A DNA stretch of 64,000 nt from Octopus vulgaris (Eukaryota). Below, piece by piece: positions 2,221 to 62,503 of this stretch. Position numbers and translations under genes: made by a program. Below the pieces are notes generated by a model. It worked only from the letters and a program-made list of their open reading frames with translations. It searched no databases and had not been told where the DNA came from. Within the stretch, counting starts at the first letter, position 1; each line of letters starts with the position of its first letter. The DNA lies in the NCBI GenBank assembly GCA_951406725.2, contig OX597830.1:79360001-79424000 (forward strand), given 5' to 3'.

Positions 2221-2302
2221 CTTTGCAGTTTTCTCACATCCTACAAAGTTTACTGTACCGAATGCATCACAGGGTTTTGATGGCTCCTCATCTAAAGTAT
2301 TT
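2221..2302 (-). CDS. TRPM-like MHR1 start exon (82 nt, phase 2->0): (R)[27 protein letters not shown]
   Basis: ctcttttgatag|AAAT..AAG|gtaatt; PxDAFGxxxFxG...K(A)K is the segment that precedes YVR at the start of TRPM MHR1. Confidence 0.88.
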
Positions 2303-62300: not shown

Positions 62301-62503
62301 TTCCTCTGAGCTAACTAGGTCACCTGCTAATTAGGTCACCTAAGTGAAAAAAAAAATTTACTCTTACTTCAGCACAATGACAAAATTATTATTCGATCAA
62401 AATAAAGAACAAACCGAATAGATAAGTCTGTATGCTCTTCCTTTACAAATCCATGTAATTTTCGGTAAACACTTGCCATAACGTCTGCTGCTCCACCAGA
62501 TCC
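2221..62503 (-). CDS. Partial multi-exon TRPM-family (melastatin/MHR-SLOG) channel-like gene; 15 exons in the window, 819 nt spliced, open at both ends
   Basis: Manual splicing of exons 62415-62503, 55330-55520, 52694-52710, 46782-46813, 42564-42606, 36674-36705, 35067-35106, 29587-29618, 21330-21357, 20027-20058, 16443-16494, 12858-12889, 9214-9289, 8152-8192 and 2221-2302 (all AG|..|GT, all phases compatible) gives [273 protein letters not shown] with no stop. Motifs resemble TRPM GSGRAADILA, LITVF..QDIDLAILTALLK and PTDAFGxIxFxG. Confidence 0.8.
4400..5636 (-). mobile_element. Truncated Gypsy LTR element (LTR about 5316-5636, PBS and gag remnant)
   Basis: Homologous to 61200-62146; gag-like [23 protein letters not shown]-like TGGTGACAGG next to the LTR. 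Confidence 0.8.
6468..7967 (+). mobile_element. 5'-truncated RTE LINE of the same family as 1-1443, interrupted by a SINE
   Basis: PWELLYAD(N), [17 protein letters not shown]; same 3' UTR and GAT tail. Confidence 0.88.
7243..7472 (+). mobile_element. Young tRNA-derived SINE with 15-bp TSD
   Basis: Head GGCGGCGAGCTGGCAGAA, B-box-like GAGTTCAAATTCC; TSD agatgtggtgtgcaa at 7228-7242 and 7473-7487. Confidence 0.9.
8152..8192 (-). CDS. Micro-exon X6 (41 nt, phase 0->2): [13 protein letters not shown]
   Basis: ttcttttatttgcag|GAT..TTGAG|gtacta; X-type acceptor flank; the donor is weaker but restores the X phase. Confidence 0.68.
9214..9289 (-). CDS. Small exon Y5 (76 nt, phase 2->0): (S)[25 protein letters not shown]
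   Basis: cttattttacag|CAAT..TTG|gtaagt. Confidence 0.7.
9915..10200 (+). mobile_element. Decayed tRNA/CORE-type SINE
   Basis: A-box-like tagcttggtggtt and CORE-like cttgagcaagatacttta; a matching copy lies at 18858-19180. Confidence 0.65.
12858..12889 (-). CDS. Micro-exon X5 (32 nt, phase 0->2): [10 protein letters not shown]
   Basis: ttcttttgttttcag|AAC..GAGAG|gtaatg. Confidence 0.78.
13860..14852 (+). mobile_element. Mariner DNA transposon, decayed
   Basis: TIRs TA-TTGGGTCA.CCCATAAATAATGCAGTTTT at both ends; transposase remnants such as WETMSHPP and YHLF.SLQNHL. Confidence 0.9.
16443..16494 (-). CDS. Micro-exon Y4 (52 nt, phase 2->0): (I)[17 protein letters not shown]
   Basis: ctgattttacag|ATTT..AAG|gtaagt; a second in-frame donor (gtaatt) lies 24 nt downstream. 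Confidence 0.72.
16641..16843. repeat. (GA)n microsatellite, about 200 bp
   Basis: Seen directly. Confidence 0.98.
17040..18235 (+). mobile_element. Mariner DNA transposon, full span but pseudogenised
   Basis: TIRs TA-TTAGGTTGTCTCACATGAAAT and ATTTCATGTGAGACAACCTCA-TA; motifs [20 protein letters not shown] (YSPDL-like). Confidence 0.93.
18305..18716 (-). mobile_element. tRNA/CORE-type SINE
   Basis: Minus-strand head AGGCGCAGGAGTGGCTGTGTGGT..GGTTCAGTCCC; same family as 41110-41508, 47440-47770 and 20520-20650. Confidence 0.85.
18858..19180 (+). mobile_element. Decayed tRNA/CORE-type SINE
   Basis: gtggcttagtggtt head and cttgggcaagacact; same position in the tandem unit as 9915-10200. Confidence 0.7.
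20027..20058 (-). CDS. Micro-exon X4 (32 nt, phase 0->2): [10 protein letters not shown]
   Basis: tctcttattttcag|GAA..AAAAT|gtaatg. Confidence 0.75.
21330..21357 (-). CDS. Micro-exon Y3 (28 nt, phase 2->0): (R)SADDSWLEN
   Basis: ttctgattttgcag|ATCA..AAT|gtaagt. Confidence 0.75.
21435..23135 (-). mobile_element. Penelope-like element remnant with long inverted termini
   Basis: Arms of about 21435-22010 and 22590-23135 are reverse complements; GIY-YIG-like [28 protein letters not shown]. Confidence 0.8.
23404..23634 (-). mobile_element. tRNA-derived SINE (family of 7243-7472)
   Basis: Reverse-complement match to the 7243 SINE from head to tail. Confidence 0.88.
23760..24830. mobile_element. 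Probable non-autonomous DNA or rolling-circle element
   Basis: Homopolymer-rich non-coding block unlike the tandem-unit sequence; termini not resolved. Confidence 0.3.
25160..28845 (+). pseudogene. Tx1/L1-clade LINE ORF2 (APE endonuclease, RT, Zn finger), frameshifted, with 3' UTR
   Basis: [76 protein letters not shown]. Confidence 0.92.
26806..26859 (-). mobile_element. 54-bp 5'-truncated SINE tail inserted into the LINE RT
   Basis: TSD caacctccatct at 26794-26805 and 26860-26871; the insert is the reverse complement of the SINE 3' tail. Confidence 0.85.
29587..29618 (-). CDS. Micro-exon X3 (32 nt, phase 0->2): [10 protein letters not shown]
   Basis: ttcttttaatttcag|AAA..GACAG|gtaatg; close paralog of X2. 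Confidence 0.78.
31393..34175 (+). mobile_element. CR1/L2-group LINE, 5'-truncated ORF2, relatively young, inserted in an (AAT)n tract
   Basis: [53 protein letters not shown]; (CAAT)n tail; few disablements. Confidence 0.93.
35067..35106 (-). CDS. Micro-exon Y2 (40 nt, phase 2->0): (S)[13 protein letters not shown]
   Basis: catattttgcag|TGAC..AGA|gtaagt. Confidence 0.78.
35556..36200 (+). mobile_element. RTE LINE endonuclease fragment
   Basis: [30 protein letters not shown]. Confidence 0.85.
36674..36705 (-). CDS. Micro-exon X2 (32 nt, phase 0->2): [10 protein letters not shown]
   Basis: ttcttttaatttcag|AAA..GAGAG|gtaatg. Confidence 0.78.
38880..40680 (-). mobile_element. Helitron remnant (PIF1-like helicase and upstream region)
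   Basis: [51 protein letters not shown] and LGRVYTVRP typical of Helitron RepHel. Confidence 0.88.
41110..41508 (-). mobile_element. tRNA/CORE-type SINE
   Basis: Same family as 18305-18716, well preserved. Confidence 0.88.
42055..42245 (-). mobile_element. tRNA-derived SINE variant
   Basis: Shares the gtacttaatttattgac..gaaaggatgaaaggcaaagt core with the 7243 family; similar copies at 5670-5855 and 52908-53050. Confidence 0.75.
42564..42606 (-). CDS. Micro-exon Y1 (43 nt, phase 2->0): (S)[14 protein letters not shown]
   Basis: tttacagattatccag|TGAC..ATG|gtaagt; an alternative in-frame AG lies 9 nt upstream. Confidence 0.75.
43345..44465 (-). mobile_element. Decayed, internally deleted RTE LINE
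   Basis: Minus-strand remnants resembling RTE endonuclease and RT segments (e.g. [19 protein letters not shown]). Confidence 0.6.
44470..46569. repeat. Near-perfect inverted duplication; arms 44470-45099 and 45939-46569, spacer about 840 bp
   Basis: The arms read as reverse complements with only a few differences; ORFs 44829..45119(-) and 45952..46209(+) mirror each other. Confidence 0.95.
46782..46813 (-). CDS. Micro-exon X1 (32 nt, phase 0->2): [10 protein letters not shown]
   Basis: ttcttttatttccag|GAT..CAGAG|gtaatg; flanks shared with the other X exons. Confidence 0.75.
48190..49480 (+). mobile_element. Penelope-like 3' fragment (GIY-YIG remnant plus C/A-rich low-complexity tail)
   Basis: [30 protein letters not shown]; the terminal sequence 49325-49480 recurs at 47230-47390. 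Confidence 0.7.
49520..52450 (-). mobile_element. Penelope-like retroelement (RT plus GIY-YIG), decayed
   Basis: [58 protein letters not shown]. Confidence 0.85.
52694..52710 (-). CDS. Micro-exon C (17 nt, phase 1->0): (D)GIHWQ
   Basis: ctactttcag|ACGGGATTCACTGGCAA|gtaaga; supplies exactly the phase change needed between exon B and X1. Confidence 0.55.
53150..53912 (+). mobile_element. Mariner remnant (3' half and right TIR)
   Basis: [31 protein letters not shown]; ends gttacaacctgaTA. Confidence 0.85.
54480..54912 (+). mobile_element. RTE 3'-UTR fragment with ~57-bp tandem repeats and (GAT)n tail
   Basis: Matches 1010-1443. Confidence 0.8.
55330..55520 (-). CDS. TRPM-like exon B (191 nt, phase 2->1): [10 protein letters not shown]...[36 protein letters not shown]
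   Basis: Acceptor gtctttctag|A and donor AAAG|gtaata; resembles the TRPM segment ..L+TVF...DxDxAILxALLK; overlaps ORF 55250..55462. Confidence 0.85.
55890..57350. repeat. Degenerate purine-rich minisatellite, ~70-bp unit, roughly 20 copies
   Basis: gtggttctaaggatggagtctagcagag..gcatggctggaggaagataatgag recurs every 68-72 bp; internal (GA)n at about 56895-56967. Confidence 0.85.
57670..62146 (-). mobile_element. Full-span but decayed Ty3/Gypsy LTR retrotransposon
   Basis: LTRs 57670-57919 and 61913-62146; PBS TGGCGACGAG (complementary to the 3' end of tRNA-Ser); PPT next to 57920; [20 protein letters not shown], integrase H..HPG..YVYWP..CRGC, DNGTHF, YRVTP. Confidence 0.92.
62415..62503 (-). 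CDS. TRPM-like exon A (89 nt, phase 0->2): [29 protein letters not shown](R)
   Basis: Acceptor ttcttttattatcag|GGA and donor TCG|gtttgt; GSGxAAD is the TRPM MHR2/SLOG motif; the phase joins exon B. Confidence 0.85.

What the first reader, a model, noticed from the sequence alone, without database searches (positions are those of the whole stretch)
2221..62503. TRPM-like protein with internally repeated N-terminal MHR/SLOG modules (end of one module, then a new MHR1 start, in one frame)
Established: in canonical TRPM channels the DAFG motif opens MHR1, well before GSGRAAD and DxAILxALLK, and the latter is followed by QLxLALxWNRxDIA. Seen: here GSGGAAD and [13 protein letters not shown] come first, I found no LALxWNR exon after them, and the frame continues through a 152-aa linker into a new PCDAFG exon. 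Inference: one polypeptide with at least two tandem MHR/SLOG modules, the region that binds ADP-ribose in TRPM2. It could be a multi-sensor channel or a soluble multi-SLOG protein.
Basis: partly seen in the sequence, partly recalled or inferred. Interest (0 to 1): 0.85.

Follow-up and report, generated by a model that had tools for sequence, protein, structure and literature searches.

The report
Octopus channel with repeated sensor domains
An octopus ion-channel gene carries four fast-evolving copies of its nucleotide-sensing domain in a row (five in a sister copy) ahead of a single pore region, and likely makes one very long channel protein whose copies are predicted to bind different ligands or none, a layout not described in the papers searched.

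Summary
Real, and larger than reported. The window holds 15 minus-strand exons, all GT-AG, in one 302-codon frame: the end of one TRPM MHR1/2 (SLOG) module, a 150-aa acidic microexon linker and the start of the next. The 'missing' LALxWNR exon is present but degenerate (52788-52694). The locus (Octopus vulgaris by its database protein) has four modules, then one MHR3/4, a six-helix pore, TRP box and coiled coil, and no NUDT9H. Modules are orthologous by position in three Octopus species and nest in TRPM-beta. Each module's ADP-ribose pocket differs; the pore-proximal one lacks two of three key residues. dN/dS is about 1 with no stop codons. One transcript is inferred from complementary gene models; I saw no read across the module junction. 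Four 1-nt losses outside the window break this copy's frame (assembly error more likely than decay). The scan found this array before on paralogous DNA (e1-8662684, e1-9550311). New variant of TRPM-beta; interest 0.6.

The parts
62415..62503 (-). E1, module 4 (M4): GSGGAAD exon, end of SLOG core; Gly at the position of human TRPM2 R358
55330..55520 (-). E2, M4: helical end of MHR2 / start of MHR3 ([13 protein letters not shown])
   Evidence: skipped by database model CAI9735657.1
52694..52788 (-). E3, last exon of M4: degenerate LALxWNRxDIA exon ([12 protein letters not shown]); ends in phase 0
46782..46813 (-). E4, linker microexon type A (phase 0 to 2), 32 nt
42564..42615 (-). E5, linker microexon type B (phase 2 to 0), 52 nt
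36674..36705 (-). E6, linker microexon type A, 32 nt
35067..35106 (-). E7, linker microexon type B, 40 nt
29587..29618 (-). E8, linker microexon type A, 32 nt
21330..21357 (-). E9, linker microexon type B, 28 nt
20027..20058 (-). E10, linker microexon type A, 32 nt; donor read-through gives a stop, with AATAAA 7 and 31 nt into the intron (candidate alternative end)
   Evidence: O. sinensis model XP_036366207.1 ends here
16443..16494 (-). E11, linker microexon type B, 52 nt
12858..12889 (-). E12, linker microexon type A, 32 nt
9214..9289 (-). E13, linker exon type B, 76 nt
8152..8192 (-). E14, type A exon that opens module 5 (homologous to the KKWxxENIKLR exon before each module)
2221..2302 (-). 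E15, PCDAFG exon, start of module 5 (M5), the module in the canonical position before MHR3/4 and the pore

Best explanation
This is the middle of an Octopus TRPM-beta channel gene in which the N-terminal SLOG module is repeated in tandem (four copies here) ahead of a single pore region, and it likely encodes one chain of about 2,450 residues that would form a calcium-co-gated cation channel whose extra modules are predicted to act as a tethered, diversifying set of ligand-binding domains rather than as extra copies of the TRPM2 ADP-ribose switch. Shown: the repeat unit is a nine-exon block that begins and ends in phase 0, so duplication keeps the frame; it covers MHR1/2 plus the first helices of MHR3. 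Order on C17, minus strand: acidic microexons, M1/M2 hybrid (from 79.62 Mb), M3 (79.55), M4 (79.48, ending in the window), 150-aa linker, M5 (starting in the window), rest of MHR3/4, S1-S6, TRP box, coiled coil, stop at 79.248 Mb; no NUDT9H. The linker is built from repeated copies of a two-microexon unit. Predicted: each module folds as a TRPM MHR1-3 piece and the linker is disordered (models of two homologues). Inferred: M5 sits against MHR3/4 as in other TRPMs but has lost two of three ADP-ribose contacts, so ADP-ribose gating through it is unlikely; the upstream modules hang on a flexible tether and would act by binding their own ligands or partners and docking on neighbouring subunits, or by buffering ligand; the outermost hybrid module is the best candidate to still bind ADP-ribose. 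Inferred: module number changes by unequal recombination, and pockets diverge under diversifying or relaxed selection while the frame is kept.
For: Frame and splice sites: 15 of 15 window exons GT-AG and in phase. Architecture: four module starts at C17 79617292, 79552344, 79484435, 79362302; no MHR3/4 or membrane hit at E<1 anywhere in 79.330-79.744 Mb and no NUDT9H hit at E<1 in 79.16-79.26 Mb; the tail exons translate to a full pore and stop. One gene: every inter-module junction is joined in at least one annotation, and the three annotations cut the array at different places: O. bimaculoides XP_052830016/17 (M1-M4, ends by reading into the intron before E1) and the next accessions XP_052830018-21 (start at E2, run through linker, M5, S1-S2); O. 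sinensis XP_036366249.1 and XP_036366207.1; O. vulgaris CAI9735658.1 and CAI9735657.1. Linker 100 of 149 residues identical to O. bimaculoides. Orthology by position and one starred clade (100/98) for all 17 repeat-family rows in a 47-row tree. Contigs of 4 RNA-like runs (3 studies) cover the bins holding E11, E12, E13, E15 in 4 of 4 runs and E14 in 3 of 4 (weak: RNA is a guess and 96-97% identical paralogues would also be laid). Selection for the frame: M4 vs M5 differ at 248 sites with no stop, neutral simulation 0 of 2000 stop-free; between this copy and the 67.4-67.7 Mb copy, coding indels longer than 1 nt are 8 of 8 multiples of three against 20 of 61 in intron flanks (Fisher P 4e-4). Folds. 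Pocket residues.
Against: No read or contig was seen joining E3 to E4 or E10 to E11; the joint table was filled by repeats and cut. All 'joined' evidence is gene models, and no database protein holds the whole array plus pore (proteins above 2246 aa were not searched). E10 has a read-through stop with AATAAA just inside the intron; an O. sinensis model ends there and O. bimaculoides isoform X4 starts at E11. This copy has four 1-nt losses in coding exons outside the window (two in M1, one in M3, one in MHR4) where the aligned sister copies keep the frame; the sister copy has two of its own. dN/dS near 1 is also what decaying duplicates show, and gene conversion between modules could inflate exon divergence. 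No ligand, partner, tissue or current was tested; the docking step is conjecture.
Confidence: 0.6

Rival explanations
1. Two products: a soluble multi-SLOG protein (M1-M4 plus part of the linker, ending at E10 by intronic polyadenylation) and a separate or alternatively started one-module channel (E11 or E14 onward).
For: O. sinensis XP_036366207.1 ends at E10; O. bimaculoides X4 begins at E11; AATAAA at +7 and +31 of that intron. Several database models are multi-SLOG without a membrane region. Most SLOG arrays on C17 have no MHR4 exon nearby.
Against: All type-A microexons share the read-through stop; AATAAA is common in this AT-rich DNA. O. bimaculoides X1-X3 and CAI9735657.1 run through E10-E11. 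E11 has a phase-2 acceptor that needs an upstream type-A exon. Split points differ between annotations. Could coexist with the long form as an isoform.
Confidence: 0.2
2. This copy is a recently decayed duplicate (pseudogene) of a functional multi-module gene elsewhere on C17, or the whole array drifts neutrally in a segmental-duplication cluster.
For: Four frameshifting 1-nt losses here; M1 end and M2 start are absent from this copy; dN/dS 1.15 (0.78-1.74) against the 67.4-67.7 Mb copy and 0.98 (0.73-1.42) between M4 and M5.
Against: 1-nt indels occur in exons at the intron rate (6 seen, 7.7 expected), as errors would, while other frameshifting lengths are absent (0 seen, 4.1 expected, P 0.017) and no stop codon was found among 162 substitutions in 1807 codons. 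The array is conserved by position in three species. The window's own 15 exons are intact.
Confidence: 0.25
3. A straightforward ADP-ribose multi-sensor: each module binds ADP-ribose as in TRPM2 and adds avidity or cooperativity.
For: All modules keep the SLOG fold; R302 or K is kept in all; the hybrid first module here has F/R/R and the GGPGT loop; O. bimaculoides M1 has F/R/R.
Against: M3 has S/K/K, M4 P/R/G, M5 S/R/Q at Y295/R302/R358, and the GGPGT loop is replaced in M3-M5. Upstream modules are separated from MHR3/4 by a predicted disordered linker, so clamshell closure could not be passed on directly.
Confidence: 0.08

Closest known systems
TRPM-beta clade of invertebrates (nvTRPM2, PDB 6co7; O. 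bimaculoides XP_052830018, listed as TRPM-beta in Table S1 of PMC13143021)
   Same: Best PDB sequence match (E 1.4e-104); SLOG, MHR3/4, six-helix pore, TRP box; modules nest among mollusc TRPM-beta; the orthologue's partial model is already in the published tree.
   Different: Four or five MHR1/2 modules instead of one; 150-aa microexon linker; no NUDT9H; pocket residues diverged; filter reads YAELFLEE instead of YGELFLDE.
Human TRPM2 MHR1/2 ADP-ribose site (PDB 6pur, 7aov; Y295, R302, R358 per PMC6759353)
   Same: Same fold predicted for each module; R302 or K kept.
   Different: Only the outermost hybrid module keeps aromatic/R/R; the module next to the pore does not.
Single-module Octopus paralogues on the same chromosome (CAI9735208.1, CAI9735207.1 at 42.9-43.1 Mb)
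   Same: Sister group of the repeat family; same exon plan, also lack NUDT9H by their Pfam lists.
   Different: One module; CAI9735208.1 keeps F/R/R and GGPGT; their modules show dN/dS 0.46 (0.33-0.70) against each other, lower than about 0.8-1.0 for comparisons that involve the repeats.
RefSeq model XP_072049890-92 (species cut off in the tool output), TRPM with two N-terminal SLOG modules
   Same: Two LSDAT_euk stretches, then MHR3/4 and Ion_trans.
   Different: Independent duplication: its two modules pair with each other, far from Octopus, on long branches; two modules only; also an untested gene model.
Bacterial Thoeris ThsA SLOG domain (recalled; seen only in search listings)
   Same: SLOG fold used as a nucleotide-signal sensor.
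   Different: No sequence test made here; analogy only.

Membership tests
TRPM | N-terminal MHR1/2 (SLOG, LSDAT_euk PF18139) | tested here: met
   Two stretches in CAI9735657.1, four in XP_052830016; four module starts at this locus.
TRPM | MHR3/4 between SLOG and membrane (PF25508) | tested here: met
   One set, after M5 only; one exon carries a 1-nt loss in this copy.
TRPM | Six-helix channel domain, TRP box, C-terminal coiled coil | tested here: met
   Ion_trans E 1.5e-19; tail exons translate S1-S6, WSLQRY and a heptad-like tail to a stop. Coiled coil judged by eye and by alignment to TRPM2.
TRPM | MHR1/2, MHR3, MHR4 each present once (the arrangement described in PMC13143021, section 27) | tested here: not met
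   MHR1/2 plus start of MHR3 is repeated four to five times. All four regions are present, so this marks a variant, not an exclusion.
TRPM-beta clade | Phylogenetic placement | tested here: met
   Module tree, 47 rows; orthologue listed as TRPM-beta in PMC13143021 Table S1. My tree held no TRPS, beta-like or gamma rows identified as such.
TRPM2-type ADP-ribose-gated chanzyme | C-terminal NUDT9H domain | tested here: not met
   Coding sequence stops after the coiled coil; no tblastn hit E<1 with six NUDT9H-bearing tails.
TRPM2-type ADP-ribose-gated chanzyme | ADP-ribose contacts Y295, R302, R358 in the module coupled to MHR3/4 | tested here: not met
   M5 has S/R/Q (residues from PMC6759353).
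TRPM2-type ADP-ribose-gated chanzyme | S2-S3/TRP-helix calcium site | tested here: met
   EEIHQ, WNIIDV and the TRP-helix Glu are present; the list of site residues (E843, Q846, N869, D872, E1073) is recalled.
TRPM2-type ADP-ribose-gated chanzyme | Current gated by ADP-ribose and calcium | not testable with these tools
   Needs patch clamp.
Single multi-module polypeptide | One transcript from M1 to the pore | tested here: inconclusive
   Phases compatible and models overlap; no spanning read seen.

The most novel reading that the evidence does not exclude
Octopuses have turned a TRPM channel into a variable, accordion-like receptor: a pore carrying a string of SLOG domains whose number is reshuffled by recombination (and possibly by splicing between same-phase exons) and whose pockets are diversifying to read different nucleotide signals, such as ADP-ribose isomers made by microbes or by host immune enzymes.
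Probability: 0.15. Interest if true: 0.85.

Novelty: new variant of a known kind. Interest (0 to 1): 0.6.

Why it matters
A 2026 survey treats the MHR1-4 region as a constant feature of TRPM and includes this gene's orthologue only as a partial model (PMC13143021). A four- to five-module N-terminus breaks that plan, is hidden by split annotations in three genomes, and offers a natural panel of SLOG pockets with different residues at the known ADP-ribose contacts. That makes it testable which residues set ligand choice and whether sensor domains can act on a TRPM gate through a flexible tether. Fast divergence with a kept frame points to a lineage-specific sensory or defence role in octopus.

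Tried and rejected
Sequencing runs: no RNA holder listed on record; 11 holders are guessed RNA. In one search intron bins beside the exons had little or no cover (8512-9019, 12068-12575, 15624-16131); not used as evidence. The joint, loose-end and piece tables there were filled by repeats and cut, so no exon junction was seen; junctions E3-E4 and E10-E11 stay open. Ion_trans search of the own genome gave 71 matches, none on C17: uninformative for an exon-split gene; a membrane exon as query worked. Pfam scan of single exons: no TRPM hit. Search for short transcript-derived proteins across the linker: 2 hits among 249 candidates, both gene models. Alignment A1 put the conserved columns outside the query and was not folded. 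Folds are of homologues (XP_052830018.1 and CAI9735597.1), not of this copy. Of 264 proteins scanned, 17 showed repeated module cover: 12 Octopus and 5 others; rejected as parallels were P0127 (jumbled, source-flagged unverified), P0128 (second module after the pore, likely fused neighbours) and P0130 (each module followed by MHR3, likely fused models); P0188 was not inspected. The frameshifted exons (3 of 64) were left out of dN/dS; two upstream exon borders remained approximate. dN/dS is Nei-Gojobori counting, not a site model; intron flanks were kept only at 92% identity or more (106 of 128), which lowers their divergence. No homology to a 5' gene end was found in the E3-E4 intron beyond the usual type-A flank and repeats. 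No complex prediction was run.
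Full report
Observation. The three motifs are on the minus strand at 62503, 55369 and 2268. Guided by database proteins, I found 15 exons in the window; all have AG/GT borders and matching phases and give 302 codons without a stop. A profile from 94 TRPM modules, with known cephalopod ids removed, matches residues 1-118 to the end of the module and 283-300 to its start. So the repeat unit is MHR1/2 plus the first helices of MHR3.

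Where and what. The window is G000:C17:79360001-79424000. A database protein encoded here is named from Octopus vulgaris (CAI9735657.1). Across 79.16-79.74 Mb the minus strand carries acidic N-terminal microexons, four modules (starts at 79617292, 79552344, 79484435, 79362302), then the rest of MHR3/4, S1-S6, TRP box, coiled coil and a stop at 79248495. The 64 exons mapped sum to about 7,000 nt over 374 kb; with the N-terminal microexons the chain would be about 2,450 aa. No MHR3/4 or membrane sequence lies between the modules and no NUDT9H follows (both no hit at E<1). The first module here is a hybrid: the end of M1 and start of M2, present in O. sinensis and O. bimaculoides models and spanned by both module sets in the 67.4 Mb copy, have no match in the 30 kb where they should lie.

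How the array arose. Each module is a nine-exon block starting and ending in phase 0, so tandem duplication keeps the frame. The linker exons alternate between two types whose intron flanks are 65-88% alike among themselves and match the flanks of the short exons before other modules; the linker is 25% acidic and 100 of 149 residues match O. bimaculoides. In a 47-row tree all 17 rows of the repeat family form one starred clade next to two single-module paralogues on the same chromosome, and modules group by position across three species (43-65% identity between positions, 76-86% between O. bimaculoides and the others at one position). The array therefore predates the split of these species. 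A second hybrid (M1/M5, single module, O. sinensis XP_036366251.1) and an M3/M4 hybrid model suggest repeated collapse, though these are gene models. The genome holds many related pieces: 81 LSDAT_euk exon matches, 4 copies of the E13-E14 stretch at 96-100%, 5 close copies of a membrane exon, 3 close copies of the MHR4 exon. At 67.39-67.70 Mb, M1-M4 run into an assembly gap, and a gap-flanked inverted block holds E6-E14, M5 and most of the pore region, so true copy number is uncertain.

One gene or two. No database protein spans the whole array and pore. But the three annotations cut it at different places and each junction is joined in at least one: O. bimaculoides has M1-M4 in XP_052830016/17, ending by read-through just before E1, and E2 to S2 in the next accessions XP_052830018-21; O. 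vulgaris is cut between M3 and M4; O. sinensis inside M4 and at E10. Contigs of four RNA-like runs cover E11-E13 and E15 in 4 of 4 runs and E14 in 3 of 4, which is weak because RNA is a guess and paralogues would also be laid. I saw no read across a junction. The E10-E11 intron is the best place for an alternative end: read-through stop, AATAAA at +7 and +31, one model ending and one starting there. I put one long transcript at about 75%.

Is this copy intact? Four single-base losses break the frame outside the window: two in an M1 exon, one in M3, one in MHR4. The aligned sister exons keep the frame there (4 of 4 M3-type copies printed, 5 of 5 other MHR4 exons), and the 67.4-67.7 Mb copy has two such lesions of its own. 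Between these two copies, 1-nt indels occur in exons at the intron rate (6 seen, 7.7 expected), other frameshifting lengths are absent (0 seen, 4.1 expected), in-frame indels are in excess (8 seen, 2.0 expected), and none of 162 substitutions made a stop. This fits assembly error on functional genes better than decay, but decay of this one copy is not excluded.

Selection. dN/dS is 0.98 (0.73-1.42) for M4 vs M5, 0.79-0.83 for repeats vs single-module paralogues, 0.41-0.43 for the membrane region in the same comparisons, and 0.46 (0.33-0.70) between the modules of the two single-module paralogues. Between the two recent copies exons differ by about 3% and intron flanks by 1.5%. With 248 differences between M4 and M5, 0 of 2000 neutral simulations stayed stop-free. 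The modules thus change fast while the frame is held; diversifying selection, relaxed constraint and gene conversion are not separated by these counts.

Structure and mechanism. A model of the O. bimaculoides orthologue shows a low-confidence linker (pLDDT under 50 over most of residues 79-231) and a confident M5-MHR3/4 that matches TRPM structures. A model of a two-module paralogue shows the same strand-helix pattern twice, best match TRPM7 MHR1-3. In human TRPM2, Y295, R302 and R358 hold ADP-ribose and clamshell closure drives gating (PMC6759353, passages); MHR1/2 is the high-affinity site (10.64898/2026.03.30.715250, abstract). Here these positions read F/R/R in the hybrid first module, S/K/K in M3, P/R/G in M4 and S/R/Q in M5, and the GGPGT loop survives only in the first. 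The calcium-site residues in S2, S3 and the TRP helix are present (residue list recalled). I infer a calcium-co-gated cation channel whose pore-coupled module no longer answers to ADP-ribose, with tethered upstream modules that bind other ligands or partners. Ligands, docking and tissue are untested.

Known or new. PMC13143021 (passages, section 27, supplement rows) describes MHR1/2, MHR3 and MHR4 as a consistent feature and lists XP_052830018 as TRPM-beta; the passages I saw do not mention repeated modules. PMC13402157 (passages; one supplement file held as text, 0 hits for 5 terms; its domain figures could not be seen), 10.1101/2024.05.23.594666 (passages) and PMC12919962 (passages) do not mention it either. 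Searches for six accessions and for tandem-SLOG phrases with TRPM returned 0 papers; some searches gave listings only. Subscription journals and bioRxiv supplements were not searchable. One unrelated gene model (XP_072049890-92) has two N-terminal modules, so the idea has arisen at least twice if that model is right. This scan noted the same array on two paralogous stretches; I had reached my reading before looking.

Verdict. A real, Octopus-restricted (within the databases searched) multi-SLOG variant of TRPM-beta; single transcript likely, function open. Interest 0.6.

Noticed in passing
window 44470-45099 and 45939-46569: A 631-bp inverted repeat, 99.4% identical, inside the E4-E5 intron, made of type-A exon flank sequence; real fold-back or assembly artefact.
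   Followed up: no
window 31483-34082 (+), 26840-27436 (+), 38906-39403 (-): Intronic mobile-element remains: endonuclease plus reverse transcriptase of a LINE, a second reverse transcriptase, and a PIF1-like helicase fragment.
   Followed up: partly
G000:C17:67565374 and 67695403 (L110, L123): Two 100-N gaps flank an inverted block holding linker E6-E14, M5 and most of the pore region, directly after M1-M4 on the other strand; flipping it would give a five-module channel, so it may be a mis-oriented contig.
   Followed up: partly
G000:C17 68.62 Mb and 44.47 Mb: Membrane exons lie close after M3-type modules with no MHR4 exon found: rearranged or truncated derivatives.
   Followed up: no
G000:C17:79271250-79271076 (L012): Pore filter reads YAELFLEE; single-module paralogues have YGELFLEE. 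Gly to Ala at the filter could change permeation.
   Followed up: no
G000:C17:79254616-79254367 (L010): The C-terminal coiled-coil exon holds an internal repeat of about 40 residues that is shorter in O. sinensis XP_036366251.1.
   Followed up: no
window 55780-55625 (-): Database model CAI9735657.1 uses intron sequence here, skips E2-E4 and several MHR4 and S1-S2 exons; the model is faulty.
   Followed up: yes
P0266 / P0131 (XP_072049890-92): Independent TRPM with two tandem N-terminal SLOG modules in another animal; species not shown by the tool.
   Followed up: partly
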